Below, piece by piece: positions 13,376 through 38,347 of a stretch of DNA of 39,044 nucleotides. The notes beneath the pieces were generated by a model. That model was given only the letters and a program-made list of their open reading frames with translations. It ran no database searches and had not been told where the DNA came from. Each line of letters starts with the position of its first letter. The first letter of the stretch is position 1. Position numbers and translations under genes: made by a program. The stretch is from Nemertoderma westbladi (lineage: Eukaryota > Animalia > Xenacoelomorpha), in NCBI GenBank assembly GCA_032718475.1, contig JAUCBJ010008144.1, forward strand, positions 1 to 39,044. Reading direction: 5' to 3'.

Positions 13376-13471
13376 ATATATTGCATTGTGTTATCACTGG
13401 AGCTCTGCTCGAGTTCCCGCAGCTCTGCGGGAACTCGAGCAGAGCTCCAGTGATAACACAATGCAATATAT
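13376..13471. repeat. Perfect palindrome, 47-bp arms with a 2-nt spacer
   Basis: 13376-13422 is the exact reverse complement of 13425-13471. Confidence 0.95.
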
Positions 13472-13478
13472 ACAGTAA

Positions 13479-13707
13479 AGGCCATGATACACCACAGGAG
13501 TGGCGAGCGGCAGCGGCGGGCGGCCGTGGCGAGCGGCCGTTGTGAGCGGCGACTTTTAGTATGATACACTATAGGAGCGGCGAGCGGCAGCAGCCATTTG
13601 TGGTGTATCATCACCCATAGAAAATAATCTGTTCTATTTTAAAAAGTGGCCGCACGCCGCGGCCGCTTGCCGCTGCCGCTCGCCGCTCCTGTGGTGTATC
13701 ATGACCT
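13479..13707. mobile_element. PIF/Harbinger (Tourist-like) MITE
   Basis: TIRs AGGCCATGATACACCACAGGAG / CTCCTGTGGTGTATCATGACCT, a TAA TSD (13476-78, 13708-10) and internal copies of the TIR motif. Confidence 0.85.
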
Positions 13708-15229
13708 TAACTGTAGTATTATTTTTCTGTGGTGTGCTTGTGCATTATTTGAGTGTATTACTCAATAGTATTGTAACTGGCTGACTGGTATTATTTGTTA
13801 CTAATTACAGGTATATTGTTAATAATTTTAGGGGTGTAGTCAGATTTTTTTTGAAGTGTTGACTACGTGATAAATCTGTTTCAAAATTATCTCAAAATAA
13901 TAAAATTTAAAAATTAACTGGCAGTCTAGAAATTGGCATTGGAAGGACATATACATGAATAATCTATTTGTGTAACATATAGTGTAACAAATTTGATAAC
14001 CTGGACGGATTATGTGCTGATACATCAAAAGTGGATTTATTGAACTATCAATAAACAATTAGTTTAATTTAGCCAATTAAATAATTTAGCATAAAATTCA
14101 TTTTCGTACGAATCCCGTACTTAACATGGGTCCCTCTCCAGTCATTATTAACCTACAGTATAGTAGGCCTACTAGTTGAAAGCCTACATTATTACTAAAA
14201 TTCATTCACCTGGAATAGTAATAATTACCATTCGCCTCGCCCATACCTTTGCTGATGCTATCAACTGTAAGAAATATTTAACATACACTAATGCTACCCT
14301 ATGATGAATTTCAAGTTTGTAAGGGACTGGAGTCAGGAGTTTAGGAAGTAGGGCCTAAGCAAACAGTATGGGTGTACTAAGTACAATAATCTTGGCAACC
14401 TCATCGATTTATACTAAGCCTGAGTAGAAATCCATTACATAAGCCATTTTTCATCATGAACACCAGCTGTTATTGGTGTTATTTTGTCATTGCGTCTATG
14501 GCACTTTTCGTTTATTGAATTTTTTGCAAAAACTAATGACTGTATTTTTCTGAAAATTGCTTTATATGCCCATTCAGACCATTCAATACAGGAGGGTAAA
14601 AAATAACACAATTGACCGGATAGTTTCGGAGCCTTTCTTGTGACAAACAGACAGTCAGACAGACAAACAAACAAACAGACAGGATTTTCTTACAGAAAGG
14701 AAATCTGAAGATTTACAAATAAAACATTTCAACGATCCAGTGCTTAGAATTCAATCAGCTGGCCTCCCCCCTAACATAGCAGTGGCGGTATTAATTGCAA
14801 TTCGATTAGTGTCTTTGCTTCTGAGAGACGAACACAGTTAATAAAAGGTCAAACACATATCTGATATCTCATTATTGAGTGTTTGAAACTCGGAATATAG
14901 TAATCTTCTAATCTTCTAAATAATTAATAATATAATAAAATAATAAATAATAATAATAATAATGATATTCTCCATAATTGATGTAAATGTAAACGGAGTT
15001 AAAATAACGGAACGGAGAAACTAATTTTGAGAGCATTCACAGTAATATCTATAGTATAATAGATACTGTACAGTGCTACTGTAGACTAGCAAGCCTGGTG
15101 CGCGAAGGGCCTGGTTTGCTAGTCTATTACTAAGCAAACATATAAAGACTAAATTGAAACACAACTTACTGACTGGTTAGAAGTAGCGAGTAAAGCAGTA
15201 GTAGTTCTAAAGACCTACTGTACTTACCA

Positions 15230-16092
15230 GATATCAAGAGTAAAATATCGAGGGTTGAAAAATATCGAGAGTAAAAATATCGAGTGTTGAAAAATATCGA
15301 GTGTTGAAAAAAATCGAGTGTAAAAATATCGACAGTAAAAATATCGAAAGTAAAATATCGAGAGTAAAAATATCGAGTGTTGAAAAATATCGAGAGTAAA
15401 AATATCGAGAGTAAAAATATAGAGTGTTGAAAAATATCGAGAATAAAAATATTCCATTTTGCGTGAGCATATTATTTAGGATTATGGGACAATATTGCCG
15501 TTCATTGGTTAGTGCAACAGTGCAACAGTGCAAGAAGTGCAAATAAATGCCATTAATTTACCTTGGCTACCCATTTACCAGATTTATTATACTAGCTAGT
15601 TTTTGCTATTTTTTTAATAAATATTATAGAAGATGTGCTAGCTATAAATTTTGATAAATATTTTTGTTCTAGAACACATTTTTTAGTTCTAGATCACATT
15701 TTTTATTGTTTAGCTTGTTAGTATTTTCTATTTCTTTTTATAAATGTTATAGAACACGTGTAAGCTGCCAATTTTGATAAATATTTTTGTTCTAGAACAC
15801 ATTTTTTTGTTCTAGAGCATATTTAAGAAAAAAAATATCATACAAACCCTTATTAAACAATTTTTACGATATTTTTACTCTCGATATTTCTCAACACTCG
15901 ATATTTTTACTCTCGATATTTTTCAAGACTCGATATTTTTACTCTTGATATTTTTACTCTCGATATTTTTACTCTCGAAATTTTTCAACACTCGATATTT
16001 TTACTCTCGATATTTTTCAACACTCAATATATTTACTCGCGTTAATTTTACTCTCGATATTTTTCATGTCTCGATATTTTTCAATATAACCC
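15230..16092. mobile_element. Foldback-like element with inverted minisatellite arms
   Basis: Tandem 15-18 bp units AAAAATATCGAGAGT / AAAAATATCGAGTGTTG at 15230-15452, and their reverse complement at 15862-16085, surround a ~400 bp AT-rich core. Confidence 0.8.
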
Positions 16093-16147
16093 TCAAGTCA
16101 AAATACTTAAATATCACATTATCATAATAAGGCAAGAATAATTGATA

Positions 16148-16618: not shown

Positions 16619-17771
16619 TGTTCGCGCTTTCAGACCTTTAGCAGTTTAACCTGCCAATTTTAGGTGTCCTCTTGTTTATAAATCGACTTTAGCCTATAAC
16701 AAGTATCCAGTGCACATGAAGCAACATTAGCCGAAGCCAGTCTATGCGCGATCATTCACCCACAGTTAAGGGAGACTGGATTCGGATGCTTTGAAGTGAT
16801 TGCGGTGCAGACCTACGGTATTATTCGATTGATCGTTACTATATAATCTCTGACAATATTATTCACTTTCGGGGAAATATTAACAGTCCCTTTAGGACGT
16901 GGCGCTTTAAGTATAAAAACAGAGTTATGACTTATACTAAACACAACGAGATGGCTACTGATTTTCGTAAATAGCGCATTCTTTAGGAGATGCTTTATTA
17001 TCTGTCACACTACTGCATACGACTTCACACTGCTGCACACTGATCTGCCGACCGTCACTGAATTTGATAATATATAAGGAGGATAGCAACTGACACATGT
17101 AGGGAGAAATAGCATTTAATTCACACTAAAACCACTATAATGTAAGTCGCAATTGCTACAGGTAACCGGTCCCTCTTACCTTCAGTAATCAAGAAGATTG
17201 GGGTTTTATGATTATTTATCAGTATTCTCCAAATATAACAACATATCCATCAACATATAACAATTAATAACAGACAGTAAACAGAAGTAAATTAGTGATT
17301 GTTTTATTATACAGCAATGTTTCAGTTCAGATGTGTGACCAGGTAATAGATTTACGTTCTTGTAATCAAAGCCGTCTAATGTTTGGCCAAAGTCTGAAAC
17401 TTCTACAGAAGTACAGAAGAATTTCCTAAGCCGATGTTCTGAGGCTCAGAAAGGTAAACAAAAACCATAATGCATTGCGCGGTTTTCCATAGGCCTCTGT
17501 ACAAGATAAAATGAAAATCGCTCTGATTGGCTGAGCTGAGCGAGCTGAACAAAGAGATGTTCCACGTTTACAGTAAATCAGCTGACAGATTTCGTCATCT
17601 GAGTTCCAGTCTTTTAGAGTATTAGGCGCATTGTGGCAGAAAATGGCTTATTATGTCCGCTAAAACACCCACACGGTACATTGCGGAGAAAATGGCTTGT
17701 TATGTCCGCTAAAACACCTACACGGCATATTGCGGAGAAAATGACTGGTTATATCCGCAAAAGCTTTTACA
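16619..17771 (-). repeat. BEL 3' LTR (1153 bp)
   Basis: Direct repeat of 37010-38116 (TGTTCGCG...TTTTACA). On the minus strand it is preceded by the short purine-rich tract GGGAGCGG (17779-17772), a candidate PPT. Confidence 0.97.
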
Positions 17772-17849
17772 CCGCTCCCAGAAAATGGGATTTAATTCTA
17801 TAAAATATAAAAAATCACAGTTTCTAAAATATAAAAATACTCTAAACAG

Positions 17850-20800
17850 TTAGTCTTTCTTACGCAAACGGCGTTTACGCAGTTTTTTGAGGCTAGCAAG
17901 AGTCCTTTTCTCTTTGGGGCGAGCCACTTTACTAGGAGGGCTATAACTCCTGGGTGAAGGGTGCAATACAATTGCATCGGAAGGTTTAGGATTACGGTCG
18001 GTGTATCCGCCGGTCGAGGTACCCGGTTGATCGATATCAACCTCAGTGGAGCGAGGTCGAACAACCTTCAGAGCACGTTTCAAGACAGCAGCTCTTACTG
18101 GTCCCTGACGATTCGTCTGCATGAGAGCGGTAGGTGGACTGTGAGTAGTGAGAAATTTCCTCGGTTTGATGGTTCTTTCTAACTTGCGTTCTCGGGCTCT
18201 ATATTCATAGGGTCGTCTATGAACTTCCTGTAGTTCTGGATGCGAGTTGATGAACAAGTCACCATATTCCGGATCTTGACGAATGAAGTTGATCAAGTTA
18301 TTGGAATTAAGATCGTTGGGATTAATGTTCCTGAGATATTTACGAACAAATTTGGTCGAAATATTCTCGCCAACACGCTTCATTAGTTCGTAACTTGGTA
18401 TGCAAGATTTTTGTTTAACGGACGCGAATAGATACGGGTGGAATGCATAAACTCCTTCGTAAGCACGTCCAGGGTAATAGCGATGACGTGACTCACAATG
18501 TAAATCCGCGTTCGCTTCCCAGGCTCGGATGTAGCGTAGGGTAATCATTTCATCTACGCTTTCCAGATTGCGGTTGAAAGGGCAATCAAAACTTGCATGT
18601 CCTTTAAACTGACAATGATGGTATTGAGTCATAAATTGGTGGCAGACTGCAAAAATGTGCAAGTTATTGAGTCTACAATACGCACAATAGATCTCCATTG
18701 TAGGCTGTTCATGGAAGTAGGAGCAGGGTACGTTGGAGTCCACAGGGGTGAAATGGTCTCGAGATGCGCATAATCGGCAACGTTTCCTAGAGACATAATT
18801 GGCATGCCGATAATCGTACGCAGTGAGACATTGTGGACCTTGATACCATTCTAAGACATAGTCATTGTCACTGCTCCGGGGCGCTGTGGGCTGAATCTCC
18901 TCAGATTCTAAGCATATTGGTTCGTCTTCCAATTGCATAGCTGAGGTAGGTGTGGCTGTCTCCTCAAGCGAACCCAGTGTCTGAACTTCCACGATAGAAT
19001 AACCCGTGGGGATTCGAGGTCTTTGTATAACAGAGGAATGTAAGTTCTGTATACAAACATCCTTGAAAATGGCGAATCCAGCGCTGTCTAACTTCTCAGC
19101 AGCTGAGTCTCTTAGGCTGAGCTTGGTCAGAGCGCGGTCCTTGAACTGACTATCAACGTTATGGAACAGAGTCAGAAAGCGCCTAAATCATTCGAAGCGG
19201 ATGAATTTATTGTGTTCATCTAGCTTGGCGAGTTTGGTTCCAAGTATTAAGGGATGGGCGCATATAGTACGACTGCACACATCGGCTAGCCAACCGGCAA
19301 GTGCGGCGTTCTCGAAGATAGTGTATATAGCTAATGAGGGACGAAGTGGAACACTCATGAAGCTATACACGACGCCAGGTGCGGTCAATGGTCCGTCAAA
19401 GTATAATCGAGAATAATGATCTCCATATACTTGTTGATAGTTGATAGGGTTTCCGACTTTGAAATTCCATCCGTATTCTTGAAAGGCAAGATGTCTGATG
19501 GAGGTTCATTGTACTTTATTGATGCCGCTGGGTGTATTGGCATACATAGTTCGGAAGAAACCTCGGCCTTCTGCCCAGGGAGCAATCAGCTGGGTATCTA
19601 CGAAAGGATATGGGATATTCTCCATGTTCCTAAAGTCGTTTTGGAGATCTCCATAAACAGCTGAGCCGATTTTAAGGATTCTTTCGTTAAACAACATCTC
19701 GAGCACGGGCTGGGGTAACATCGATCCATCGATACCCATGGCCGGTTTGCCCTCGGTGTCGGTGATGTAACGCTGCGCAAGTTCGAATTGTCCATGTCGG
19801 AGTTTCTTTTGTATCTTGGTGAGGGTCTCAAAAGAATAATCAATCACGTCGGAACACGCTCGAGTAAACACGTGGGTAGAACCAGCTAGTCCTCGCATAT
19901 GTATCATGCGCGTAGTTCCCAGTTCTCCAACCGGAACGCTACCTTCGTTATCGTAAGTGACAACTCCATACATTTCGATAACGTTAAGAGTTTCGTTCCA
20001 CTCTTTAGTGGCGTTTTCTAGGGTCATCCCCACTGGATGCCACAAGGTGGCGCATTCGCTAGCGTTAGGTAGATCCCTATACTTCAGATACCGTGTAGTA
20101 TACGTCTCTACATCTCCATATCATTGTATTCTCTCCTCGTCGAATAACACGTCGAGATTCCAGTGGACTAATCGTGTTTTGATAAATCCATCGAGATTAT
20201 ACGGAGGCATTATATCCTTCTCTATTCTGGAAACATTGTAGGGTTTTCTGAATGAGTTTACTTTCACTAACTGATCCAGATGTTTCTGCAGTTGTTCGAG
20301 TTCGACAATATCGAGAGGATTTATTAGTGGTAGAAACCTTAGACTATGTGTAGGATTGTCCGGTTTTACCATATAATATTGAGTTAGATTGACATAATAA
20401 GGGTGATCTTTGATCCCATAAAACGAGTTCGGCAAAGGTCTAGCGCGTATGTTGACCTCGTGTACCATACGACGGACAAGATCCGCTCGATTGTCCGGAG
20501 GTTCAACGAGTATACCGTCGACACGAGCGGCCTCGATTGGCGGACGCTGTAACATAGGAGTGTCAGCGATAAGATCTCGAGATCTTAGGTTGATATCAAC
20601 CGGTTGGGGTTGTACCGTTGCGAAGAGTTTGTCTCCGAAATGGGGAACCATCGAGGGATGAATGATGGTTTTGGAATAGAGTTCAGTCATGAGGATTTGA
20701 GCTTCTGGTTGGGCTAAAGCTGCTTCTTCTCTCTCATCCATTTCGATGTGTTTCTCCTCGAGCTGATTTTCCTCCGCTTGTCGTTGTAAGCGTTCGTCTA

Positions 20801-22102
20801 AAACTCTTGTAGAGAATAGGTTCGTCCAAGTTCGATGTCTTCCTCGAGGTTCTGGATTTCTCGATCGAACTGGGGTAAGGCCAACTCCTTCACCGCTTGG
20901 ACTTGTTGCTGCAATTTGCTTTTCTCTAAACAATCGTAAGTTCCTTTTCCGATCTTCTGCCGAATAGCGTCTAACGCGTTTCGTACAACGCTCTCCTCAA
21001 CTTCGGTGACGGGTTGTATCGGGGTTAAACCGGGACGATTGTACGGGTTGAACGGCGATATTAGATGTCCGCGTCCCAATCCGGCTAGGTAGGATGGGCG
21101 AATATCTAGCGAGCACACTACCAGAGTGCCACCGATTAATTGTTCGGGTAACACAAGATCTTTGAACAGCGAGTACAGTTCAGGAGGATCCGTTATACTA
21201 TTAGGATCAAGAGTTTGAGGTCTCACTAGGGAATGAGGAGGTCTGACCGAGTATTCCGGAACTCTGATCATGGGTTTATTTAAGGATCGTTTGAGTCGAG
21301 TGAGCGTAGGTGATACGTCGAACAAGTTTCGCTCAAAACTCCCGTAAGTACAGCGAGTAAAACTGTGTTTAGCGCAACATCTCCGAGGATGTTTATGTCT
21401 TTCCATTTGTTGGTTGGGTCTAGGGCATTCATCGCAATAATACCAAAGACACACGTCCTGTAGGGGAAACGCGGGTGATCGTTCTCCAGTTTTACAATAT
21501 TCCTCCACCTGTTCGAAGCTATCCAGGACAACAGGTAGCGGTCGATCGGCGGTAAGATACATCATAGTGAAATAGAGCCGTTTGAGTTCTATCATAGGGT
21601 CATGATGTATACCTTGAGGATATCGAGTTTCTAGATTTTGTTGGCTGGCAATATTGAGATATGTTTCTCTCAAGAATTCCAGATATTTGTTGAAGTCGCT
21701 GCGTTTATCCGGCTCTTCAACATCTTCTCTTTCGAGTCGGTTTCGAATAGAATTCTCGTGTTCGATTCTCGGTTTATCGTTCCGACTCTGCTGGGTATGA
21801 TATTTAAATAGAACCATTTCCCTTTCGGTGTCTACATCGTCCGTATCATGTAAATCGATAGGATGGCCAGTAGTTAAGAAGTCCATATACGTACCATTAC
21901 GATGCGTATAGCGAGCGGTGAATTTTCTATAGTCCAATTCACGCGTGAGTTGTTCCTTGGACATTGGCGGTTCGATATAATGGCCATCGTCCTCCGTAGT
22001 AGTTGGACTAGCGTCGCCGCGTATTAAGCTATCAACAAACGCTTGCAATGGTAGGGTATATCGCTCCCTGATACCAAGATCGTCTTCTATCAACTCAGTC
22101 AT
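17850..22102 (-). pseudogene. Accessory ORF of the BEL element (~1,417 codons reconstructed): Cys/His cluster, coiled coil, DEDDy-like 3'-5' exonuclease, CCHC knuckles, basic tail
   Basis: ORFs 20121-20933, 19506-20045, 19188-19388 and 17850-18992 share one frame separated only by single TGA codons (20121, 19506, 19188). ORF 20798-22102 joins them by one frameshift near 20810. Exonuclease-like motifs: VVTYDNEG, LPQPVLEMLFNERILKIGSAVYGD, FVDTQLIA, TSIRHLAFQEYG, LAIYTIFE. Confidence 0.8.
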
Positions 22103-22915
22103 AGCTGCTATATGAGTTTATCAATATTATAATTAATTATAATTAGGCTAGCGGGCATCGCTGCCTACCCCTCACTGCCCCCGGACAGCGCAAGATCCTC
22201 AGCGCCGATGTACTGTTGTCGCGGTGCCTATCGCCAACGTAGTAGCTACACAACGACAACAATAACCAGCGCGAGTCACTCCACTGTCCGTCCCAAGGGC
22301 TTAGATTTACTTCAGGTTCTTACTGCAGAGGTAGGGCTACTTTCACAACTGCGACTAGCTACTGTAAACACACTTTAGTAGCAACATTCATCTATAAACG
22401 CACAAATTCCACACAACTGTCACAAATTGTACACATTCGGGCCATTTGTCCATTAGTCAAGTGCCTTCCAGAATGCCACGTTATTATTATGTATCCTTGG
22501 ATACTAGCAGTGCGCTATTTATTCCGTATGCTATTCAATGGGGCAAGCTTTCTATTGTTCTTTTAACTCGCTTCTAATTCTAGCGTGGTTGTTGCTATGG
22601 TGACATTATGGAAAGCTAGCAATAGAATTAGGGTAATTCTCATGCATACAGATCTGGGATGCTATTTAATAGTAATTCTTTAATTGTCAATATTCCCCTT
22701 TATACATGATTTTATGAATTTTATCGGCTATTGACTATATATTGGAGATTCTCTCACACTAATATACTTAATAGGGTGAATCTCCGCTCCCATGATCTAT
22801 TAATTAATGGAATTTTGGGAATGTTATAAATTGCATAAAATGACAATTTATCAAATTCATGAGAGGATATGAATTTAAAATTATTCCCATAAATTTTATT
22901 ATTTAATATTAAATA

Positions 22916-23833: not shown

Positions 23834-25121
23834 TTACGTTGGGGAGTCCCTAGATGTTTGTTGGATTAGGGAGGTGGTCGTGGGAAGAGTATCTTGCCTT
23901 CCATAGTTTCCGGATAGTTCTCTGTCTCTTTCCAGTAAACATAAACGACCAACTGGGCGATTGAGTTGCTGCATTTCGAATACAATTCCAGGTTTCTTAA
24001 AGTTATGTTGCATGACGACGAGTTCTACCGATCGCACTAAACCATCATCGGAGATATGAGTCTCGATGATACGACCTGTCTGCCACCGTTTACGTGGAAG
24101 ATCTGATTCCACAATAAGGACCATGTCTCCGGCGCTGACGTTTTCTTGCTGCGCAAACCACTTGGTTCGAAGTTGTAGCATAGGCAGATAATGTTTTTCG
24201 AAATGGTCAGCGAAACGACAGGCTAATAACTGCATAAGTTGCCAAGTTTGTCGGCAGTATTCGTCTCCGTCCGTGATTTCCGATCGTGGGAGCATGGCTA
24301 CAGGTTTCTTCAGTAGGAAGTGTGCGGGTGTTAGCGCTTCCAGGGAGTCAGGACTCGATGAGACTGAAGCGGTCTCTCGTTAAGATAGGCGGCGATTTCT
24401 TCCATTAACGTCCGCAAAAGTTCGTCGGTGAGATATGCGCGGCACGGCACTATAAAGTGAAATGCGGTCTTCAAGGTCCTTATTAATCTCTCCCAACTTC
24501 CTCCCCACCAAGGGGCGTCGGCGGCGTTGAAGGTCCAGCTAGATGCTGTTACCCTTAGCTGATCGTCCACCTGTCTTTGGTTCCAATCTTTAACGTAAGC
24601 TTTGATCTCATTATTGGCGCCAATGAAGTTCGTTCCATTATCAGATCTCATCGTATTGCTAGTTCCAAAGCGAGCGATCTGTCGGCGTAAACTCTGTATG
24701 AAGCTGTTGGTAGATAGATCGTTCACCATATCTAGATGGATCGCTCTACAAGTCATACAGACAAAGATGACACCCCATCGCTTGACTATAGTCCTAGCAC
24801 AATATACTTCAATAGGGCCAAATAAATCCATACCGGTATTAGTAAAGGGTGGTTCATAGAAGCTTACTCGTTCCCTAGGTAATTCTGCCTTAAAGGTGTG
24901 TTAAAGCTGTGTTAAAGGCCTACTAAATGCTTTCCTACAGGGTATACAGTTCCTAAGAACTTGGTTCAGAGCTCTACGGGGTTTATGAAAATAATAGCAA
25001 GTTCGAATTTCACTAAGAACTCGTTCTCTACCAGCATGGTAAAGCTTACTGTGAACATCTACAATCATCTTGATTTGTATTTCAAGATTTCTAATGAGTA
25101 TGGGAAACTTAGTGTCAAAGG
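23834..25121 (-). pseudogene. BEL integrase (HHCC finger, rve core, C-terminal domain), disrupted
   Basis: VHSKLYHAG..CIPC, PFTNTGMDLFGP, CMTCRAIHLD, SDNGTNFIG, PWWGGSWERLI, W.TGRI....DGLVRSV..RPVGRLCLL. Contains stops and frameshifts. Confidence 0.92.
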
Positions 25122-28100
25122 CTCAGGACTCAGCTGCATAACAACAGTGCGTTAGCGGCCTCTGAATCGCAGTCTGTTTTGGCTAATGATACCAGTGGGG
25201 ATGCACCTGCTGTGGGCGCAGCCTCCGCTTCTATGGTGGATCCCACCCCCACGGGGATTTAACCAAACGGAAACGTCAATTATCTTAGTGATTTGTGAAT
25301 ATATATAAAATATCTATATTTTGTTTTTCTATAACTAATTGTATATACCTTTTACAATGGCAACCTTAAATGTACAATCTTACAACTGTAATTCTGTTAG
25401 GAGCCTTAGTGCTCGCAATGCAGTTCACAATATTTGTGAAAACGGTTGTGATGTGCTAATGCTTCAGGAGCTCATGTTACCCAAGCAGGAGCTATCCTTC
25501 CTGGGTTCGTTGCACCCAGACTTTTTGTACTTTGGTATTTCACCCGTGGACTATTCCAGCGGACCTTTAATCGGACGCCCATATGGGGGGCTCGGTATAT
25601 TATGGAGAAAAACGGTGGCCCATGCTATTAACGTTGTATCATTGGGCTACGAGAGAATCTTAGGAATTACAATTGATATTAAGGATGGACAAAAATTACT
25701 GATTCTCAATATTTACTTACCGTTTCAGTGTGCTGATAATGAGGAGACATACCTTTCCTGCATGGGTGCTCTGCAGTCTATCATTGTAGATACTTGTAGT
25801 GATTATGTGTGCATAATTGGTGACTTTAACGCCAATCCTGGTACTCGTTTCTTCAACTTTCTTAATAGCTGGCGTTCAGATCTGGGACTCAGTATAGTAG
25901 ACATTGATTCCTTGCCGGTGGACACTTTTACCTTTGTTAGTAGTGCTTATGGGTCTACCTCTTCGCTTGACCATGTGGTATGTTCTGAGTCACTTTCAAA
26001 TAAGCTTATAAGTGTGTCTGTAAATTATGATCTAGTTACAGACGATCACATGCCAATCAGCGTTAATTTTTCTATTAGTGCTAAAGATTTAGCTTCTGAG
26101 ACCGAGCCTCAGATTACAGACGCGGCCAACAACCCAGCTGCGGTACCCCGTGTCGATTGGAAACGAGTATCCCAGGATGGTCTAACATCCTATTGTAATA
26201 ATGTGCAATCTGAACTGTTGGTAGTATATAATGATTTTATTGCAAATGACTCTAATTGTACATGTACATGTACAGATGTTAATTGTGTTAATCCCGCACA
26301 TAGGAAATTACTGGATAGTTTTTATGACAATATTGTACAAGGTCTAGGGGCAGCAAGTGCACCACTGCCCAAAGTTAAATCAAATAAGAACGGTACAGGT
26401 AGATACAACATTCCAGGATGGAATTCCCTGGTTAAAGATAAGTATGATGAATCGAGAAAACTTTTCAAATTATGGCGCACCTGTGGCTCTCCCCGTCAAG
26501 GTACAATTTTTAATGATTATTTATGTGCGAAAGCTAACTTTAAGCGCTGCCTCCGGCACTGTAAACGTGAGCAGTCAAATCTGCGTAATAATAAAATTGC
26601 AGAAACCCTGATCACCGACTCAAGATGTAAGGGTGGTGCAACCAGTAACGATTTCTGGTCAGAAATACGGAAACAATCCACCGAATCATCCACTCTCCCT
26701 AATAAAGTAGGGGGTGCGGTGGGTGAATATGCAATCAGTGAAATGTGGCAAAAACATTTTGAAGGGTTATTTAATTGCGTCAACGACGACACAAAGTGTG
26801 ATACAGTAAAATCAAAATTGAGTAAATTAATATTTAAAGATACGGACCGTGTAAGTATGGTTGAAGTATTTGATGCAATAAATAAATTACAACCTGGTAA
26901 AGCAGTAGGACCCGATGGTCTGAGCGCTGAATATTTTATTAACGGGTGCAACTTTGAATTGATTAATTGTATTATGGTGCTATTTAATTCAATTTTCATT
27001 CATGGGTATTTACCCGAGAAAATGATTGAATCCATTATTATACCTTTGGTAAAAGACCGTTCTGATGATGTCACATCGAAAGATAACTATCGTGGCATTG
27101 CTATAGCTACGGTGTTAAGTAAGATTTTTGAGTTTGTAATTATCAATCGGGTGGTAAACATACTTTCGTCAACACCGAATCAATTCGGCTTTAAAGGAAA
27201 ATTAGGCACTGAACTTTGTGTATACACATTTAAGGAAATAGTTAATTATTATTTGTCAAGAAACACACCGGTGTATGTATGTATGTTGGACCTTAGCAAG
27301 GCATTTGATCGCATTAACCACTATTTACTTTTTGATAAGTTGATTGACCGTGGTGTGCCGTTATTTATAGTTCGGGTTATATTATTTTGGTACAGAAATC
27401 AATTAATGTGCGTAAGATGGGGGTCTATTCTATCGAATAGTTTTACGGTTACAAATGGTACCAAACAGGGCGGGATACTCTCCCCCCTGTTCTTTAATAT
27501 TTATATTGATAACTTAAGTGCAGATCTAACTAATACTGGGTTGGGCTGCAAAATGGGTGACATGCGAATTAACCACTTGTGCTATGCTGATGATCTTTGT
27601 TTGCTAAGTAATTCTATTTTTGGTCTGCAGTGCTTAATAAATATTGCAATAAAATTTGCGGATAGTAGTTCTATGCTGTTTAATTTAAAAAAAACTAAGT
27701 GTATGTACTACTATCCCAAATCCTCTCAAGGTTGTGCGTCTAATGTATATATATATGGAAAACGAATTGAAATTGTCGATAAATTTGTTTACTTAGGTCA
27801 TTTATTACATTGTAGTACCGACGACGACTTCGATATTCTTAGGCAAACTAACTCACTCTATGCACGTGGTAATTACATATGTAGGAAATTTGGTAGTTGT
27901 TCAGATAAGGTTAAAGTTAAGTTGTTTCAAGCATTTTGTACTCCTATTTATTGTAATGCGCTGTGGGCTAGCTCAAACTACTCCCAGAGTGCATTCCAAA
28001 AAATACGTGTTGCTTATAATAATTGTTTACGTATGTTATTTAACATTCCTCGAATGACTGGTGATGATCCCACCAGTATATCTTTATACTTTGGAACTTT

Positions 28101-28345
28101 GAATATCCCGATGTTTGTTCATATACAGCATACTTCACGGAATAGTTTATTTAATAGGGTTATAAATAGTGCAAATATAATTGTTAAGACTGTATACAGG
28201 ATCACCCGAATTGACGGTGTGTCAAGAATTTTTCGTTTGTAAATATCTTTATTTAATTTATGTAATTTGTGCTATGTTCGTAATACGTTTTACTATGGAG
28301 CAATGGCTCTGGTTTAAATAAATAAAAAAAAAAAAAAAAAAAAAA
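25122..28345 (+). mobile_element. 5'-truncated LINE (RTE-X-like), inserted antisense in BEL pol
   Basis: It has an EN-RT ORF, a poly(A) run at 28324-28348 and a TSD AAAGG (25117-21, 28346-50). Removing it restores the BEL frame GGRLTNAPLS-FDTKFPILI. An open frame ending at ~25262 may be the tail of ORF1. Confidence 0.93.
25357..28242 (+). CDS. LINE ORF2: AP endonuclease and reverse transcriptase (961 aa from ATG), intact
   Basis: SYNCN, LMLQE, NIYLP, GDFNA, LDHV, DDHMP (APE); NYRGIA, QFGFK, LDLSKAFD, GTKQGGILSP, YADD, FVYLG (RT). The C-terminal VAYNNCLR pattern suggests the RTE-X clade. Confidence 0.95.
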   Translation: MATLNVQSYNCNSVRSLSARNAVHNICENGCDVLMLQELMLPKQELSFLGSLHPDFLYFGISPVDYSSGPLIGRPYGGLGILWRKTVAHAINVVSLGYERILGITIDIKDGQKLLILNIYLPFQCADNEETYLSCMGALQSIIVDTCSDYVCIIGDFNANPGTRFFNFLNSWRSDLGLSIVDIDSLPVDTFTFVSSAYGSTSSLDHVVCSESLSNKLISVSVNYDLVTDDHMPISVNFSISAKDLASETEPQITDAANNPAAVPRVDWKRVSQDGLTSYCNNVQSELLVVYNDFIANDSNCTCTCTDVNCVNPAHRKLLDSFYDNIVQGLGAASAPLPKVKSNKNGTGRYNIPGWNSLVKDKYDESRKLFKLWRTCGSPRQGTIFNDYLCAKANFKRCLRHCKREQSNLRNNKIAETLITDSRCKGGATSNDFWSEIRKQSTESSTLPNKVGGAVGEYAISEMWQKHFEGLFNCVNDDTKCDTVKSKLSKLIFKDTDRVSMVEVFDAINKLQPGKAVGPDGLSAEYFINGCNFELINCIMVLFNSIFIHGYLPEKMIESIIIPLVKDRSDDVTSKDNYRGIAIATVLSKIFEFVIINRVVNILSSTPNQFGFKGKLGTELCVYTFKEIVNYYLSRNTPVYVCMLDLSKAFDRINHYLLFDKLIDRGVPLFIVRVILFWYRNQLMCVRWGSILSNSFTVTNGTKQGGILSPLFFNIYIDNLSADLTNTGLGCKMGDMRINHLCYADDLCLLSNSIFGLQCLINIAIKFADSSSMLFNLKKTKCMYYYPKSSQGCASNVYIYGKRIEIVDKFVYLGHLLHCSTDDDFDILRQTNSLYARGNYICRKFGSCSDKVKVKLFQAFCTPIYCNALWASSNYSQSAFQKIRVAYNNCLRMLFNIPRMTGDDPTSISLYFGTLNIPMFVHIQHTSRNSLFNRVINSANIIVKTVYRITRIDGVSRIFRL

Positions 28346-28350
28346 AAAGG

Positions 28351-31300
28351 ATAATGGAGCATTAGTTAGTCTCCCTCCAACACGTATTAACCCATCTATC
28401 ATTGTGCTAGAGAAACGATCCCTTAAGCGCATCTGGATTTCTCAACAACAGGAAATACTTATCGGAATCTTCATAGCATTGCAAGAGTCTCAGTATCTGC
28501 TTATTGGTTTCTTCATGCTCCTGGTAACTGATCTTCTCCGTCAGAAACCTATCTGATACCTTGTATTTGGGAAGATCTTTAATAGCATGGACCTGTGCAG
28601 ATGTCAGTGGAGCGGTATCACTAGCGATCTTCGTCCTGGAGTAGTGATAATGGAAGCATTGCTTCAAATACACGACGGCCTTACAAAGCCGATTCCAGGA
28701 GCTATAGTGATGTATCGCTCTCTGCAGGAGAGGTGAGAGTCCCTGCGAGACGTCTGGTGTTCCAGATTTCCAGTCTCTTTCTCTAATTTCCACAACAGAT
28801 TTATTTGTGGTGGGGGAGTTTAGATCCACAGCGTCATCTCCGGAAATGTGTACTACAGACAGATCTATCATGGGTTTAAATAACTTCGATTTACTCATCC
28901 GGGTTTTAGGTTTGACTTTCTCCGCTCCCTTGGCTTGTCTAATCTCAGCCGTGGTGAGATGAGGAGGCCATTCATCCCCTTCTTTACTTAGGAAGTCGGG
29001 TCCACCTAACCAGTCCGGAGTATCTATCAGTTCTTGAGGAGTTGCTCCTCTGGAGGCGATGTCGGCTGGATTAATCGTCCCAGGGCAATGTCTCCATTGA
29101 TCTACATTAGTGCGACTAAGTATAATGGCTACTCTGTTGGTAACGAAGACGCTGAACTGACAGACTTCATTGGTTATATACTCCAAGACGAGTAAAGCAT
29201 CGGTCCAATAGACAGTTTTCTCCAGTGGATAGTCGATCTGTTCTGTTACATTCCGGCCGATGGCTGTAGCGTATAGAGCCGCCTTTAACTCCGCTTCGAG
29301 GAACTCGTAGTTTGTTGTTTATCAAGGCCTTAGAAGTAGCCAAGGCAACTTTAATTCCGTCCGGAGTTTCAACTCCCAGGTAGGCTACTATACCTATTCC
29401 CATATCGCTGGCGTCTCCAAACACATGGAGTTGATAGGTATACATGGGGAGAACGTGACCAAAATATGAACGGGAAATCGTAAAGTTCTCGATGGAGATA
29501 GATACTCCGAGCACCCAATATAACTGGGCTAATAAATCCCAATGGATCGAAATAAGTGCTCAGGATACTTAGACAAATCCGTTTAGTTCGAACTGGATTA
29601 TCTCGCTGTTTTAGCTGGAAAAACAGGATATCTCTCTCCGTGTCCCATTTCAGACCAAGTGTCTTGGTTTCCGGAAGATCGTCCTTGATAGGTCCAGGTC
29701 TTTAACCCCTCGGTCTTCTACCGGGATCGATTCCAGAAACTCATGGGAGTTGCTAGTGAATTTGGTTAGTCGAAATCCACTGCATTTCAAGCACTCTACC
29801 GTTCCCCTGGCAACATCAATGGCTTCTTCCACCGATGGAAGGGACTTTAAATTGTCGTCCATGTATATATCCCGTTTGATGTTGTCGATAACCGCTTTAG
29901 AGAAGGCGTCTCGGCTGTCATCAGCAGTGGTACGCACTACTGAACAAGCGTTCGAGGGGCTCGAGATGATCCCGAAAGCCTGGATGGTCATCCAGTACTC
30001 CACCGGTTTTTGGTTGAGGTCTCCTTCAGGCCACCACAGAAATCGTAGGCTGTCTCGATCCCTATCCAGCACCTTAACTTGTAAGAACATGCCTTCTATA
30101 TCCGAGGCGAAAGCGATAGAATATTGCCGTAATCTTAAGAGTATTCCCAACAAGGATTGGAGTAAGTTGGGTCCCGGCATCAACTCAGAATTAAGTGATT
30201 GGTCCATGTAAAGGGCGGAGCCGTCGAATACTACCGGGACTTCGTTGGGTTTACCGGGTTTGGGAATGTAATGATGTGTTAGATAATAGGTTCTCTCAGT
30301 TATAGGTGTTTCTTCCTGTACTCGCTCCGCGTATCCCTTATCGATGAATTTCTTCAGCTGGGTCTTATACATCTCTTTAGCTGAAGCATTTGCCGTAAGG
30401 CGCCGACGTAGTTGTGCGATTCTCTTCTCCGCCAAGGGTCGGTTATTTATAAAGTTGGGTTCTCGCCGTCGGAATGGCAGACCAATCTCATACCTACCTT
30501 GATCTTTAAGAAAACGTGTAGTCGTTTCCTGGATCTGCTTGGCTCTTTCCTCCTCGACCGATAGTGCTTTGTCGTAGGAATTACGCTCTACAGCTTCTTG
30601 AGTAAAGAATCGTACGGCGTGTTCATCGCGAATCTTAGCATTGTGTCGATCTATCACCTCATTTAGCTCGTCGTTGTAATCGAGTTGTCCGCCATGATTG
30701 ATGAGATGGCAAAGGTGCACTTGGTTTCTCCATGCTTCACTTTCTATCTGAGGAGTATGGTGTTCCCTCAGGTGTGGTCTCTCCCTCACTGATTTCTTCT
30801 TCCCATTCACTCACCTGATGTATATGCTCGGTAGGTAATCTTTCCATGAGTGTTCTACGGGAAGGTCCAGTGAAGTACCAACCTACTCTAGTTCTTCCCG
30901 CATAGGTTTGCAATGGTTGCGGTCGAGCAGGCCGTTTCTCTAATGTCTCAAGCGCCTCATGCGCATTTTGGCCGATCAATATCTGCACCCATGGGTAGTC
31001 GGTGTTGAATCTAGGGATATTATGCTGCTGGGTAAAATCGTCTTCATCCCAGTTGTAAGGTTCCACTTGGCTGGTAGCAAAGTTCTTTATCGCCACCATT
31101 TTTACTGACCTTTTGCTGTGTTCTCCTAGTTCGTCCTGGGGAGTGGACAACGCGCCTACATAGTAGTCTGTAGCTACTGTAGATTTCCAAACCTGCATAA
31201 TTCCTGAAAGGTTCAACTTAGTTCGGAACTTGGGTTGTCCAGCAAAGATGTCTTCGGCTAGTTCTTTGTCGATGAATGTTCCTGTGCTGCCGGAGTCCAG

Positions 31301-34300
31301 GAGGGCGTTGACTATAAAACTCTTACCTGATCCATGGACTCTCAGCTGAACTACCGGGAATTCCCGAATTCCGACATTGGAGGTTGGCGCTTTCCAAGAT
31401 GGTTGTCGGTCAGGAATAGTCGGGTGCGCTTCGTTATCGGTTTCAGTCTCATACGTAAGCGCTCGATACACCGCGGTGTTTATCATATAACAGGATTCGT
31501 TTTCGTCAGAGAATTCGTCCGTGTAAAATCCTTCCATCTCAGAGCTGTGGTCAGTGTCGTTCACATCACTGAATTGGACATGTAGTTCGGACTCACTTAC
31601 CTGACTCGGGCTGGTTCTTTCAAATTCGGTGTGCAGCAAGATATGATGTTTCGCGCCGCACTTAGCACACCTCGCGTCGGAGTAACAGGTTCACCGTTGG
31701 TGTCCTTGCCTGAGACAATTATAACACAACCGCTTATCCCACATGACATCACGTCTATCCTTTAGGGATTTCTTTAAGAATTCATCACATACACTTAAAC
31801 GATGGGGCCCGTCGCACAATGCACATTTGGGTTTGATGTTACTCACTTTACCTTAGGTAGTGTTGTGCACACTTGTTCTTTCCTCGGGCTTTTTTCCATG
31901 AATTCTTTTAGGAGACGCAGGAGAAGTTTTTGTTACCTGTTCTCTCCTGTCACTGGTTCGAGACTTAGATTTACTTACGTCTTTAGGTGCTTTGTTGACA
32001 TAGTAAGATCTTTCGGTGTCTTTCCTGCTGTTCTCCTCCTGAGAGGTTTGGCTTTCGCCGTTGTCTGTATAACACACTGGTGTTACCTTTCTCCTAGAAG
32101 CGGGTTTTTCATTTACTTTATTTTCCGGTGTCTTCTCTCGGGACTGTTTTAGGAGCTGTAATCTTACCTCTCCATTTAAGAATGACATGAGATCAGCCAT
32201 GGTAGGGTCTCTTTGTTGCTGGTCCATCATATAGAGAACTCTCTTATCCCAACGCGTACCTACTCCACCCTTCGGCAAAGTAGATGCTACGGCTCCAACA
32301 TCCAACAACCATAGAACTCTGATATTCATGAGACTTACCTAGCCAATCTAATGGTCTACAGATCTCCTGGATCTCATCGGAAAATTCTATAATCCCGCTG
32401 CTAAGGAACTTTTGGGGTGCTACTAATTTCGCATACAAATACCTAGCTATGTTAGTCCTATTACCATACCTGATGTTTAGTGTATCCCAAACTTGTCGCA
32501 ATCCATCTGGATGTCCAATAAACTTTAACGCCATTAACTTGGGAGGTCCTTCCAAGCACTCGATGAGGAATCTAAGTTTCTCTCCATTAGATAGTACAGA
32601 GTTCTGTATGTTATCTTTGTAATATTCATTAAAAGGTAACCATTTCATCTCATCTCCATTGAACTTGACGATCTCCCCCACCTTTACCGCTTGATGGGCT
32701 TCGGTTCTAGCCATTTGACGCGTAAAACTTTCTTGGGCAATCGTATTATTTAATATCGAGTTATCGGTATTTAAATTTCTCGGATTATGATCAGGTCTAT
32801 ATGGAATATCATTATCAACAGGTTTATAATTATCCTTAAGAGGGTTTACTATTGGAGTTTCTACTTCTCTAGCAGTATAGATGCGTGTAGGCTCCACACC
32901 TTGCGCATGAAATACTTCAGACCTAACAGGTTGACACATTGTTACAGGGGGTGGTGGTATACCCCTTTGTATATTTACCAATTTATCGCGTTCTAAAGCG
33001 ATACTCTGCTGCACTTCTTGCAACTCTAACCTACCTTCTCTTACTGTTCCCTTTAACTGTTGAACAGTCCCCTCCAACTCCCGGACCTGTTGGGAGGAAC
33101 GTTCCCGATGTTCCTCCATCTGCCCGAGCAGGAGATCCATCCCCCGCCGTCGCTCATCCACCCACTCTACCGCTGAAGCGGGAGCCGCCAACATAGTAGC
33201 GGGCAGACGAGGGACGACGGGCGACAAATCGTTAATGTCTCGCTCGGCGTCCAGGACTAGAATTGACTCAGGGGCTGTTCTACTGGGCACAGGTAGTTTA
33301 GTACTGTGCAAAGGGAATTTAGAGTTAGGTTCTGGAAGTACAGGGGTCTCTATCACAGAGGGGGTGGCTTCGGGAACAGGCCTAATTATTTCAGGCTCAT
33401 CTACTATAGTAGGGAGTCTTTCTATTCTTATTATTTTGGTCTGTGTGTTCTGTACTACCTAAGTCTGCACTAGCTAGTTGCCTTTTCACAGCTGGGGGCA
33501 AATTAGGCAATTTCTGACGGTAGGGCGTTCTTCTATGTCTGCTGGAACGAGATCTATTTCCTCCGCCTTCAGGATCTGTTGTATCGCCTTCATCAGATGA
33601 TGTAAATCCCTGTCTCTTGGGAGTAGATCGACTTATCATCTGCATATGACTAGCTCTTCTCTGTTTATTTAAGTAGTCTTGCTTCTCTTGAAGATTTTCC
33701 AACTCTAGTTGGGCTGTCTATTCAGATGCCCTCCATTCGGCTGCTGCCACTGCCTCTGCCGCTTTTCTTTCCGGTTCTACCGCTGCCTCTGACACTTTTC
33801 TTTCCGCTTCTACCGCTGCCTCTGCCACCTTTCTTTCCGCTTCTGCCGCTGGCTCTGCCTCTGCCGCTGCCATTGCCACCTTTCTTTCAACTTATGCCGC
33901 CGCCGCTGCAGCTGTCCTTCTATCCTCTATCTGTTTTTTCTTTAATTGTTCTTCCTGTTCCCTAGCGATGAGGATTCTTTCATCAAATTTAGCCTGATCC
34001 GTGGCTAACATTTCCGCATCTAATGAGTCTAACACAAATTTGGCTCCCTCACTATTAGGGTGAAGTCCAGCTAGCCGTCTCCTCAACTCTTTGTCACCTA
34101 TAAATCTTTGATAGTCTGACAGATAGATGTCAATAGCGTCCTTCTTCTGAGGTTTCTCTGATGTAACGTCGCTTTCCACCTGAGAAAAGGTAGCATCTGT
34201 TGATTCTCCGTGGATAGCGCGCTCAGTTAGCTGAATTTTCCATTGGGTTGTTCCTTGGACTTTAAGACTTACCCGTTGGAACCAAGTCTTTACGGCGACT

Positions 34301-35094
34301 TGCAACGACGTGTCTTGGCTTCTCTTCGAGGCTTCCTCAAAGGCTGAAAGGATTAGTCTGATTCTTAGGATTCGTTCTCGAACTTGATAAAGCAGCTCTC
34401 CCTGCTCTTGAGGTCCCTGGGGTTGTTGGAACAGTTGTTCCTCTAATCGCTCCAAAGAGCTGACGAATCCCTGTACATATCCTGCTGCCGACGTTTTCCA
34501 CACAGCTGGATCTCTAGTGTCCTTTACCACTCCCATCCGGTATAAGTCCTCCCAGGCAGCTTCCGATAAGTTAAACGGGAGTCCGGGTCCGGGGAAGTTC
34601 CATTGCGTCTCGACAATAGACTTCAGTTCCTCCATTGTGTATCCCACATAACTGTCCTTGGTCGATCGCTTACTTCTCGCCCAATCGATTTGATGTTCCT
34701 CCACTGCAATCAATACCCTAGTGAGTACGGCTTCAGGAAGAATTAGAAGTGGGTCCGAATAAACTGCTTCTGCCATCTTTGCTCCGCGCTCGGGTGTCAA
34801 CTCTACAGTATCTGAACTACTGGAGCTATCGGGCCGCTGAGAAATAAGTTCTCGGTTCGGGTGTTGCTGCTGTTTAACAGCGGCCTCTTGGTCCCGCTTG
34901 ACTTGAGCCCGAGTGCCTATGATAGACCTACGGTGCTTTACTAGCCTAGGGTCTGATACTACTACTGGAGGGATGACTTTTCTTACAGTAGGAGGGGACT
35001 TGGACTTCGGTCTCAAATGTTCGGCACTCCTGTCGGAGTCGCAGGCTGTTCTTTCTAGGAGACTATCTGACAGAGTTTGCTTTGTGTCAGCCAT
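28351..35094 (-). pseudogene. BEL gag-protease-RT-RNase H polyprotein, disrupted
   Basis: Fragments: 33892-35094 (N-terminal extension), 32244-33356 (KFNGD..W..F...EKLRFLIECLEG), knuckles ~31635-31827 (CALCDGPH..C; CYNCLRQGH..C; CAKCGAKHH..LH), protease 30737-31639, RT 29650-30810 and RNase H 28407-29514. Confidence 0.93.
33745..33910 (-). repeat. Coding low-complexity tandem repeat (charged, Ala-rich) in the Gag N-terminal extension
   Basis: Repeated ~33-36 bp ccgctgcctctg...ttctttccgcttc units. Confidence 0.7.
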
Positions 35095-35230
35095 GTTTGA
35101 TTGTACAGTTGAATGCCTACTACTATAAACGACAGTTAAAGCAAGTCTAGTAATTCAGTATCAACTGTAAGCCTAGTAATTAATTACCGATACCGTTACT
35201 CAGTGTAACGTGATATATATACAATATATT

Positions 35231-36998: not shown

Positions 36999-37009
36999 AA
37001 ATCTATTAC
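36999..37009 (-). promoter_or_regulatory. Non-tRNA primer-binding site candidate (complementary to an LTR-internal 11-mer)
   Basis: On the minus strand GTAATAGATTT directly follows the 5' LTR, with no TGG. It is the exact complement of minus-strand AAATCTATTAC at 37748-37738. Confidence 0.6.
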
Positions 37010-38116
37010 TGTTCGCGCTTTAAGACCTTTAGCAGTTTAACCTGCCAATTTTAGGTGTCCTCTTGTTTATAAATCGACTTTAGCCTATAACAAGTATCCA
37101 GTGCACATGAAGCAACATTAGCCGAAGCCAGTCTATGCGCGATCATTCACCCACAGTTAAGGGAGACTGGATTCGGATGCTTTGAAGTGATTGCAGTGCA
37201 GACCTACGGTATTATTCGATTGATCGTTACTATATAATCTCTGACAATATTATTCACTTTCGGGGAAATATTAACAGTTCCTTTAGGACGTGGCGCTTTA
37301 AGTATAAAAACAGAGTTATGACTTATACTAAACACAACGAGATGGCTACTGATTTTTGTAAATAGCGCATTCTTTAGGAGATGCTTTATTATCTGTCACA
37401 CTACTGCATATGACTTCACACTGCTGCACACTGATCTGCCGACCGTCACTGAATTTGATCATATATAAGGAGGATAGCAACTGACACATGTAGGGATTAT
37501 GAAATAGCATTTAATTCACACTAAAACCACTATAATGTAAGTCGCAATTGCTACAGGTAACCGGTCCCTCTTACCTTCAATAATCAAGAAGATTGGGGTT
37601 TTATGATTATTTTTCGGTATTCTCCAAATATAACAACATATCCATCAACATATAACAATTAATAACAGACAGTAAACAGAAGTAAATTAGTGATAGTTTT
37701 ATTATACAGCAATGTTTCAGTTCAGATGTGTGACCAGGTAATAGATTTACGTTCTTGTAATCAAAGCCGTCTAATGTTTGGCCAAAGTCTGAAACTTCTA
37801 CAGAAGTACAGAAGAATTTCCTAAGCCGATGTTCTGAGGCTCAGAAAGGTAAACAAAAACCATAATGCATTGCGCGGTTTTCCGTAGGCCTCTGTACAAG
37901 ATAAAATGAAAATCGCTCTGATTGGCTGAGCTGAGCGAGCTGAACAAAGAGATGTTTACGTTTACAGTAAATCAGCTGACAGATTTCGTCATCTGAGTTC
38001 CAGTCTTTTAGAGTATTAGGCGCATTGCGGCAGAAAATGGCTTATTATGTCTGCTATAACACCTACACGGCATATTGCGCAGAAAATGACTGGTTATATC
38101 CGCAAAAGCTTTTACA
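37010..38116 (-). repeat. BEL 5' LTR (1107 bp)
   Basis: Direct repeat of 16619-17771. On the minus strand it has CCAAT at 37925-37921 and AATAAA at 37703-37698. Confidence 0.97.
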
Positions 38117-38347
38117 AGATGTTATCCATTTTTGATAGAGCTACCCAAGCTTTTGCTTTCCTAACTTCTATGCCCTTTTTGCTACTCTCTATCCATGATC
38201 CAAGGTACTGGAAGCCGTCGACCTTCCTTACTTGATTATTATCAATGGTTGTCAAGTTTCCATCAACATTAAAGGTCATGAGTTCGGTCTTGGTAGCATT
38301 TATATGCAATCCAACCTCCTTAGCAGCCCTAATAATAATGAGCCTCT
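38117..38347 (-). mobile_element. RTE-clade LINE fragment, 5' part
   Basis: AAKEVGLHINATKTELM...FQYLGSWI...RKAKAWVALSKMDNI continues in frame into WKSDLS at 16613 across the TSD. The right TSD copy AATAATTGATA is at 38348-38358. Confidence 0.85.

What the first reader, a model, noticed from the sequence alone, without database searches (positions are those of the whole stretch)
36999..37748. Tf1-like self-priming signature in a BEL/Pao element
Seen: the bases right after the 5' LTR (minus strand, 37009-36999) are GTAATAGATTT, with no TGG to pair with a tRNA CCA end. They are the perfect complement of AAATCTATTAC inside the LTR (37748-37738; also present at 17353-17343 in the 3' LTR). The match is exactly 11 bp and abuts the LTR edge. 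A CCAAT lies ~170 bp upstream of the 11-mer and an AATAAA 45 nt downstream of its start, compatible with it marking the start of R. Known: S. pombe Tf1 primes reverse transcription with the first 11 nt of its own transcript, whereas BEL/Pao elements are generally described as tRNA-primed. Inference: this lineage evolved self-priming independently. Caveats: it is an AT-rich 11-mer and the implied U5 is long (~670 nt).
Basis: partly seen in the sequence, partly recalled or inferred. Interest (0 to 1): 0.8.

Follow-up and report, generated by a model that had tools for sequence, protein, structure and literature searches.

The report
Self-priming BEL/Pao retrotransposons with spliced primers
This animal jumping gene and most of its relatives that could be checked lack the usual tRNA docking site and instead carry a matching piece of their own sequence that likely acts as the primer for copying themselves; in most relatives a predicted intron splits that piece, so the primer would exist only after splicing.

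Summary
In a 21.5-kb BEL/Pao element, the 11 bases after the 5' LTR have no TGG and are the exact complement of an LTR 11-mer (18 of 20,000 shuffles). Relatives change the story. Among 17 other BEL/Pao families with a defined LTR end, 13 have an 11-15 nt complement in their own LTR, against 7 of 306 swapped pairs. In 13 of the 17 the best match is split by a GT...AG intron, 11 of them with a GTRAG donor (35 of 891 background), so it forms only after splicing. A blind scan of 45 further families gave 8 hits; all 8 follow an LTR-end ACA (controls 0 of 6). Three sister pairs show compensatory changes. The one clear TGG-type family has neither complement nor donor. The window's element is an intron-less form. 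Self-priming is therefore likely, but it looks like a shared trait of these BEL/Pao elements, not an invention of this lineage. No RNA data were available, so the start site, splicing and cleavage are all inferred. Ten literature searches found no report of BEL/Pao self-priming or of a splice-made primer.

The parts
37010..38116 (-). 5' LTR (1107 nt, TGT..ACA)
36999..37009 (-). Primer-binding site position, no TGG, directly after the LTR
37738..37748 (-). 11-mer complementary to the PBS site; predicted self-primer, contiguous (intron-less) form, ends in AC like 12 of 16 matched families
37750..37755 (-). Predicted extension helix (6 pairs, 2 of them G-U) with leader 36997-36992, after one mismatch
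   Evidence: RNA duplex prediction; no null computed
37692..37737 (-). Segment right after the 11-mer that most sibling copies do not share; holds the first AATAAA (37703-37698)
37385..37390 (-). Second AATAAA, an alternative poly(A) signal
37921..37925 (-). CCAAT box candidate
   Evidence: motif match only
37569..37574 (-). The only GTRAG splice donor in the LTR; downstream of the 11-mer, does not split it
16619..17771 (-). 3' LTR (1153 nt) with the second copy of the 11-mer at 17353-17343
17772..17779 (-). Polypurine tract abutting the 3' LTR
38117..38121 (-). Target-site duplication CATCT (other copy 16618-16614)
33892..35154 (-). 420-aa ORF upstream of gag, no Pfam family, no match in the 101 loci
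31853..33458 (-). gag region in two frames (DUF1759)
28407..31690 (-). pol: protease, RT and RNase H region, broken into four overlapping frames
25339..28242 (+). Inserted LINE ORF (967 aa, endonuclease + RT), antisense, followed by a poly(A) run; interrupts pol
23834..24900 (-). Integrase core and DUF5641, in two frames
17850..22117 (-). Extra 3' ORF pieces; 20120-19506 resembles a 3'-5' exonuclease (PF01612-rich clusters), 19187-17850 is Cys/His-rich
   Evidence: no Pfam or PDB sequence hit

Best explanation
The 11 bases after the 5' LTR are complementary to an 11-mer in the LTR, and this element likely primes reverse transcription without a tRNA: the 5' end of its own RNA would fold back onto this site and be cut at or next to the 3' end of the 11-mer to give the primer, as in Tf1. 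Shown: the complement; the same arrangement in 13 of 17 relatives; covariation between sister families; consensus splice sites splitting the match in most relatives. Inferred: in most relatives the primer is made by splicing a 66-451 nt intron out of the 5' end of the RNA. The window's element and three other families (L047, L049, L089) would be forms that lost the intron, for example when a 3' copy was spliced before being copied. Start site, splicing, cleavage and the cleaving enzyme are all untested.
For: Window: 18 of 20,000 shuffles; 7 of 2,000 under the strict family rule. Relatives with an LTR end fixed by LTR-pair divergence: matches of 11 nt or more in 14 of 18 own pairs (window included), against 7 of 306 swapped PBS/LTR pairs and 7 of 270 downstream leader windows. 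With consensus splice sites and offsets 0-5 only: 12 of 18 against 3 of 306. Donor consensus was not used for selection, yet 11 of 13 spliced matches have GTRAG, against 35 of 891 GT sites in the same LTRs, 14 of 193 swapped and 7 of 156 downstream matches; L084 has an equally long match at a GTGAGT donor. Blind scan: 8 of 45 further families gave 10 nt or more, and all 8 lie within 5 nt of an ACA that the scan did not ask for; the 6 control hits had none. Two-sided changes between sister families: L084/L086 two positions, L047/L049 one, L023/L028 two. Donor and acceptor stand in both LTRs in 6 of 7 loci tested. A poly(A) signal lies 0-97 nt after the match in 15 of 17 (no null). L062 has a TGG-type site, a best match of 4 nt and no GTRAG donor. 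In the host's own copies, 26 of 27 listed contig pieces match U3 and the 11-mer and stop at 37734-37740, the boundary where first-strand transfer would fall.
Against: No RNA evidence of any kind: start site, splicing and primer ends are unseen. For the window alone the match is not significant under the loosest search (9 of 100). 16 of the 27 listed sibling pieces stop at 37739, so the 11th base is often not shared, and the siblings' PBS bases were not among the variant rows shown (344 rows were cut). The distance from 11-mer to LTR end (739 nt) is far longer than in the other matched families (52-210 nt); only the doubtful L095 is similar. Five families with a located LTR start gave no match (L012, L027, L031, L075, L087), and 37 of 45 blind-scan families had no hit, many probably for lack of a whole LTR, which I did not check one by one. 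L047 and L100 match only at offsets 9 and 8, and I widened the offset range after seeing them. L081 has one mismatch; L064 has TGG at offset 1 and a non-consensus donor. The families are related, so counts are not independent events. The window's RT is a long branch of unsure place on a quick tree. This copy is dead (pol broken, LINE inserted), so its sequence may have drifted.
Confidence: 0.68

Rival explanations
1. Priming in trans: a short LTR transcript (start, splice, early poly(A)) is a separate primer RNA that anneals to an unspliced genomic RNA and is trimmed back to the duplex.
For: A poly(A) signal sits 0-97 nt after the primer end in 15 of 17 families, so a short spliced RNA could be made from either LTR. 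It explains intron inheritance as well as the cis model does. The window's element carries a 3'-5' exonuclease-like ORF.
Against: None of the 101 loci matched that ORF, so it is not general. The cis route has a tested precedent in Tf1 (PMC7175516, passages).
Confidence: 0.14
2. The pairing is real but structural or regulatory (it masks the site, or controls translation or packaging), and another RNA, such as a tRNA fragment, is the primer.
For: Predicted pairing runs upstream of the core match, like a leader stem. Half-tRNA priming without TGG is known in copia lineages (PMC6317226, passages). Host tRNAs could not be searched: no genome is held.
Against: The site differs widely between families yet tracks each family's own LTR, which a small set of conserved tRNAs would not allow. 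The paired strand ends 0-4 nt from the LTR end in 14 of 16 matched families, where a primer must end. No tRNA gene or tRNA-like Rfam hit in the region.
Confidence: 0.1
3. The family trait is real, but in this window the 11-mer is a chance match or a relic, and the working primer lies elsewhere.
For: 9 of 100 under the loosest search; unusually long U5; variable 11th base in siblings; a second 11-nt spliced match exists in the LTR.
Against: Offset 0, length 11 and the AC end all fit the family pattern. Sibling sharing ends at this very place. The second match uses a non-consensus donor and an acceptor without a pyrimidine tract.
Confidence: 0.08

Closest known systems
Tf1/Tf2 of Schizosaccharomyces pombe and the Tf1/sushi and Tcn1 chromoviruses (Ty3/gypsy)
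   Same: No tRNA site; an 11-nt complement of the PBS inside the LTR. Tf1 pairs its first 11 bases and RNase H cuts between bases 11 and 12 (PMC7175516, passages). The commonest match length here is also 11 (9 of 18).
   Different: Different superfamily. Pairing is predicted to extend upstream, so the primer may not be the first 11 nt. In most relatives an intron splits the primer; I found no such case for Tf1-type elements in the papers seen.
TAR lineage of plant Ty1/copia (Houba, Osr-1)
   Same: Self-priming predicted from sequence by the same rule: 10 nt or more of complement starting 0-5 nt after the LTR (PMC6317226, passages). The window meets this rule.
   Different: Copia, plants, contiguous match by BLASTN. 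That method would miss most of the split matches here (contiguous part 7-10 nt).
Belpaoviridae (BEL/Pao) as described by ICTV
   Same: Gag with DUF1759, pol order protease-RT-RNase H-integrase, LTRs, PPT, LTR size within 0.2-1.2 kb (PMC8742986, whole text).
   Different: ICTV gives an 18-nt PBS for tRNA-Arg or tRNA-Gly and a genome of 4.2-10 kb. This element has no such site and spans 21.5 kb (about 18 kb without the LINE).
Dictyostelid Skipper and fungal GalEa elements
   Same: Lack a TGG site; non-canonical priming proposed (PMC5006619, PMC5445492, passages).
   Different: Those papers found no complement in the LTR; whether they tested spliced matches is not stated in the passages I saw.

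Membership tests
BEL/Pao (Belpaoviridae) | BEL/Pao-type gag and pol domains in the order PR-RT-RH-IN | tested here: met
   DUF1759, Peptidase_A17, DUF5641 above cut-off; protease and integrase core weak, in that order; many RT homologues carry PF05380
BEL/Pao (Belpaoviridae) | LTRs with TG..CA ends, PPT, target-site duplication | tested here: met
BEL/Pao (Belpaoviridae) | 18-nt PBS for the 3' end of tRNA-Arg or tRNA-Gly (a described trait, PMC8742986) | tested here: not met
   No TGG in the first 8 bases after the LTR; classification rests on pol, so membership stands
BEL/Pao (Belpaoviridae) | Placement in a named clade (Sinbad, Sparrow, Surcouf, Suzu, Tas, Dan, Flow, BEL, Pao) | not testable with these tools
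   No named reference elements were available; the tree has none
Tf1-type self-priming elements | Complement of 10 nt or more in the LTR to the bases 0-5 nt after the LTR, no TGG | tested here: met
   11 nt at offset 0
Tf1-type self-priming elements | The complement is the very 5' end of the transcript | not testable with these tools
   No RNA holder listed; predicted upstream helix hints at an earlier start
Tf1-type self-priming elements | RNase H cleavage at the end of the duplex releases the primer | not testable with these tools
   Indirect only: intron kept in both LTRs, sibling boundary at 37734-37740
Tf1-type self-priming elements | Covariation of PBS and LTR complement | tested here: met
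   Across families and in three sister pairs; not seen within the window's own family, where the data were cut
Tf1/sushi clade (descent) | Ty3/gypsy chromovirus pol | tested here: not met
   Pol is BEL/Pao type

The most novel reading that the evidence does not exclude
A large part of the BEL/Pao superfamily in (probably marine) animals primes reverse transcription with a piece of its own RNA that the spliceosome builds: a tiny first exon is joined to the next exon to make the PBS complement, so only spliced RNA can be copied, and the intron survives because the spliced piece is thrown away as primer. The window's element is an intron-lost derivative.
Probability: 0.62. Interest if true: 0.92.

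Novelty: new variant of a known kind. Interest (0 to 1): 0.84.

Why it matters
The reference description of BEL/Pao says tRNA-primed and calls replication poorly understood (PMC8742986). If this holds, self-priming occurs in all three LTR superfamilies, and a splicing step gates reverse transcription, which I did not find in print. It explains how an intron can persist inside an LTR. It frees these elements from tRNA supply and, by inference, from tRNA-fragment silencing. It gives a simple rule for annotating BEL/Pao LTR ends where no PBS is found. It also suggests re-testing other 'no PBS' elements (Skipper, fungal GalEa, Tcn2-5) with spliced matches allowed. RT-PCR or existing RNA-seq of any host can test it directly.

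Tried and rejected
No host genome is held, so neither a host tRNA search nor a copy-by-copy sibling analysis was possible. Sequencing runs: no RNA holder listed; this is no evidence on expression. The one run guessed as RNA had no cover over 37680-37871; nothing is drawn from that. An exact LTR-end pattern found nothing in metagenome contigs. The RT alignment found no relative in viral contigs. Rfam gave two weak hits far below gathering score; ARAGORN found no tRNA in the window. A spliced alternative primer in the window's LTR (donor at LTR position 137, acceptor at 878; 7 of 200 shuffles) was rejected for its non-consensus donor and acceptor. The idea that the single GTRAG donor at 37574 shortens the long U5 was rejected on logic: an intron spliced from U5 of the copied RNA would not be inherited. 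L056 was dropped from the defined set because its repeat does not end in CA; it stayed in the blind scan and gave no hit. A relaxed scan with wobble on 15 loci gave only weak or doubtful hits besides L095. L044/L051 (12 nt) and L002 (10 nt) were found afterwards by a looser look and are not in the counts. The careful tree did not finish; the quick tree left out L095, L099, L100 and L101. No PDB sequence hit for the exonuclease-like ORF. Three Tf1 papers were not held.

Full report
Observation. The window holds one LTR element on the minus strand: 5' LTR 38116-37010, 3' LTR 17771-16619, both TGT..ACA, a 5-nt target duplication and a purine tract at the 3' LTR. The LTRs differ at 16 of 1103 aligned bases and three gaps. 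Pfam places it in BEL/Pao. Named RT homologues (37-44% identity among the top hits) come from corals, fish, crinoids, hemichordates and molluscs, so the host is probably a marine animal (inference). Pol is broken into several frames and a LINE sits inside it. The match arises in 18 of 20,000 shuffles at offset 0 and 68 of 20,000 at offsets 0-3.

Relatives. They fall into 74 families at 85% DNA identity. In 17 families the LTR end is fixed by where the two LTRs diverge, without reference to any pairing. Only three have TGG in the first 8 bases after the LTR. A plain search gave mostly short matches of 5-9 nt, but many began right after a pyrimidine tract and AG. Allowing one GT...AG intron rebuilt 11-15 nt perfect matches.

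Controls. Matches of 11 nt or more occur in 14 of 18 own pairs (window included), 7 of 306 swapped pairs (4 of these between sister families) and 7 of 270 downstream leader windows. That run used offsets 0-9, widened after I saw L047 and L100; with offsets 0-5 and consensus splice sites only, it is 12 of 18 against 3 of 306. The best match is spliced in 13 of the 17 relatives. Eleven of these 13 have a GTRAG donor although the search asked only for GT; the background is 35 of 891. In 45 other families with enough upstream DNA, a blind scan gave 8 hits of 10 nt or more, and all 8 follow an ACA within 5 nt; 0 of 6 control hits do. Sister families change both strands together: L084/L086 at two positions, L047/L049 at one, L023/L028 at two. 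L062 has a TGG-type site, a 4-nt best match and no GTRAG donor; its site looks like a tRNA-Tyr complement, which is recalled and comes from no call. Against: five families with a located LTR start gave nothing, L081 has a mismatch, L064 is ambiguous, and the families are not independent.

The window's own form. Its match is contiguous, like L047, L049 and L089. It starts at offset 0 and ends in AC, as 12 of 16 matched families do. Its LTR has one GTRAG donor, downstream of the 11-mer. Six more pairs are predicted upstream after one mismatch (-11.7 to -16.8 kcal/mol). On the quick RT tree spliced forms occur in all main branches; L047/L049 sit inside a well-supported group of 26 rows with spliced members, and L089 inside one of 16; the window is a long branch of unsure place (midpoint root, no test of clades run). 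Intron loss is thus the simpler reading for the contiguous forms, but it is not proven.

Sibling copies. DNA runs of the host hold many variant contigs. On 37670-37800, 26 of the 27 listed pieces (309 more not shown) match U3 and the 11-mer and stop at 37734-37740; what follows differs between contigs, and one contig has 11 letters put in at 37735-37737. A few contigs rejoin at 37684-37691. So sharing ends at the 3' end of the predicted primer, where first-strand transfer would occur. But 16 of the 27 stop at 37739, so the 11th base varies, and I could not see the siblings' PBS bases. Why this segment differs so much between copies is unexplained.

Mechanism. Shown: complement, covariation, splice-site consensus, intron sequence in both LTRs in 6 of 7 loci, poly(A) signal 0-97 nt after the match in 15 of 17. 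Inferred: the RNA starts at or a little upstream of the match, is spliced in intron-type families, folds onto the PBS and is cut at the duplex end. The strong-stop DNA then jumps to the short repeat between the cut and the poly(A) site and recopies primer, intron and U3 from the 3' LTR. An intron spliced from any other part of the copied 5' end would be lost in one round, so its persistence fits a discarded primer; a separate short primer RNA acting in trans fits too. The 3' donor ends a very long exon and may be spliced rarely; when it is, an intron-less form like the window's would result.

Literature. Whole text read: PMC8742986 (ICTV: 18-nt PBS for tRNA-Arg or -Gly, 4.2-10 kb). Passages read: PMC7175516 (Tf1 mechanism), PMC6317226 (self-priming in Tf1/sushi, Tcn1, TAR; detection rule), PMC5006619, PMC5445492, PMC3601003, PMC8220671, PMC5408684, PMC12451622. 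Term look-ups found no mention of primer, PBS or tRNA in PMC3118150 or PMC6238403, and no PBS or tRNA in PMC554778. Ten searches listed no paper on BEL/Pao self-priming or on a primer made by splicing; most listed papers were seen as listings only. Subscription papers, Repbase and GyDB entries and all supplements were not seen and may hold earlier notes on these sites.

Verdict. Observation confirmed. Self-priming is likely; it is not special to this lineage; and the wider result, a primer that appears to be built by splicing, is the more surprising one. All of it rests on DNA sequence. Interest 0.84; new variant of a known kind.

Noticed in passing
window 20120-19506 (-): Extra ORF piece resembling a 3'-5' exonuclease (27 of 30 atlas hits in PF01612 clusters, best 0.93). 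DEDDy ORFs are known in rotifer LTR elements (PMC5408684, passages). No match in the 101 loci.
   Followed up: partly
window 35154-33892 (-), 22117-20121 (-), 19187-17850 (-): Further large ORFs without a Pfam family or a match in the loci; the element is about twice the size ICTV gives for the family.
   Followed up: partly
window 37737-37692: Segment just after the predicted primer that most sibling contigs replace with other sequence, while U3 and the rest of the LTR are shared. Unexplained.
   Followed up: partly
window 17771-17638 and 38116-38032: The LTR starts with a 49-nt tandem unit; the 3' LTR has one more copy than the 5' LTR.
   Followed up: no
window 25339-28242 (+): Open 967-aa LINE ORF with a poly(A) tail, inserted antisense into pol; no target duplication found by exact search.
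   Followed up: partly
window 38117-38300 and 16618-16300: The element interrupts what looks like an old LINE RT; several host contigs align from 38117 and carry other letters in place of the LTR.
   Followed up: partly
window 15210-16101: Two arrays of 15/17-nt units in inverted orientation, foldback-like.
   Followed up: no
window 13376-13471, 13471-13715 and 10414-10703: A perfect 47-bp palindrome next to a 68-nt inverted repeat, and a 130-nt inverted repeat.
   Followed up: no
window 7599-8558 (-) and 9100-9957 (-): ORFs of 319 and 285 aa outside the element, not examined.
   Followed up: no
L081-L101: 21 BEL/Pao loci, several with both LTRs, lie in bacterial genome bins; likely host DNA contaminating those bins.
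   Followed up: no
L095:1387-2220: Spliced match with a long distance to the site (674 nt) and to RT (6.2 kb), like the window's spacing; may be chance.
   Followed up: partly
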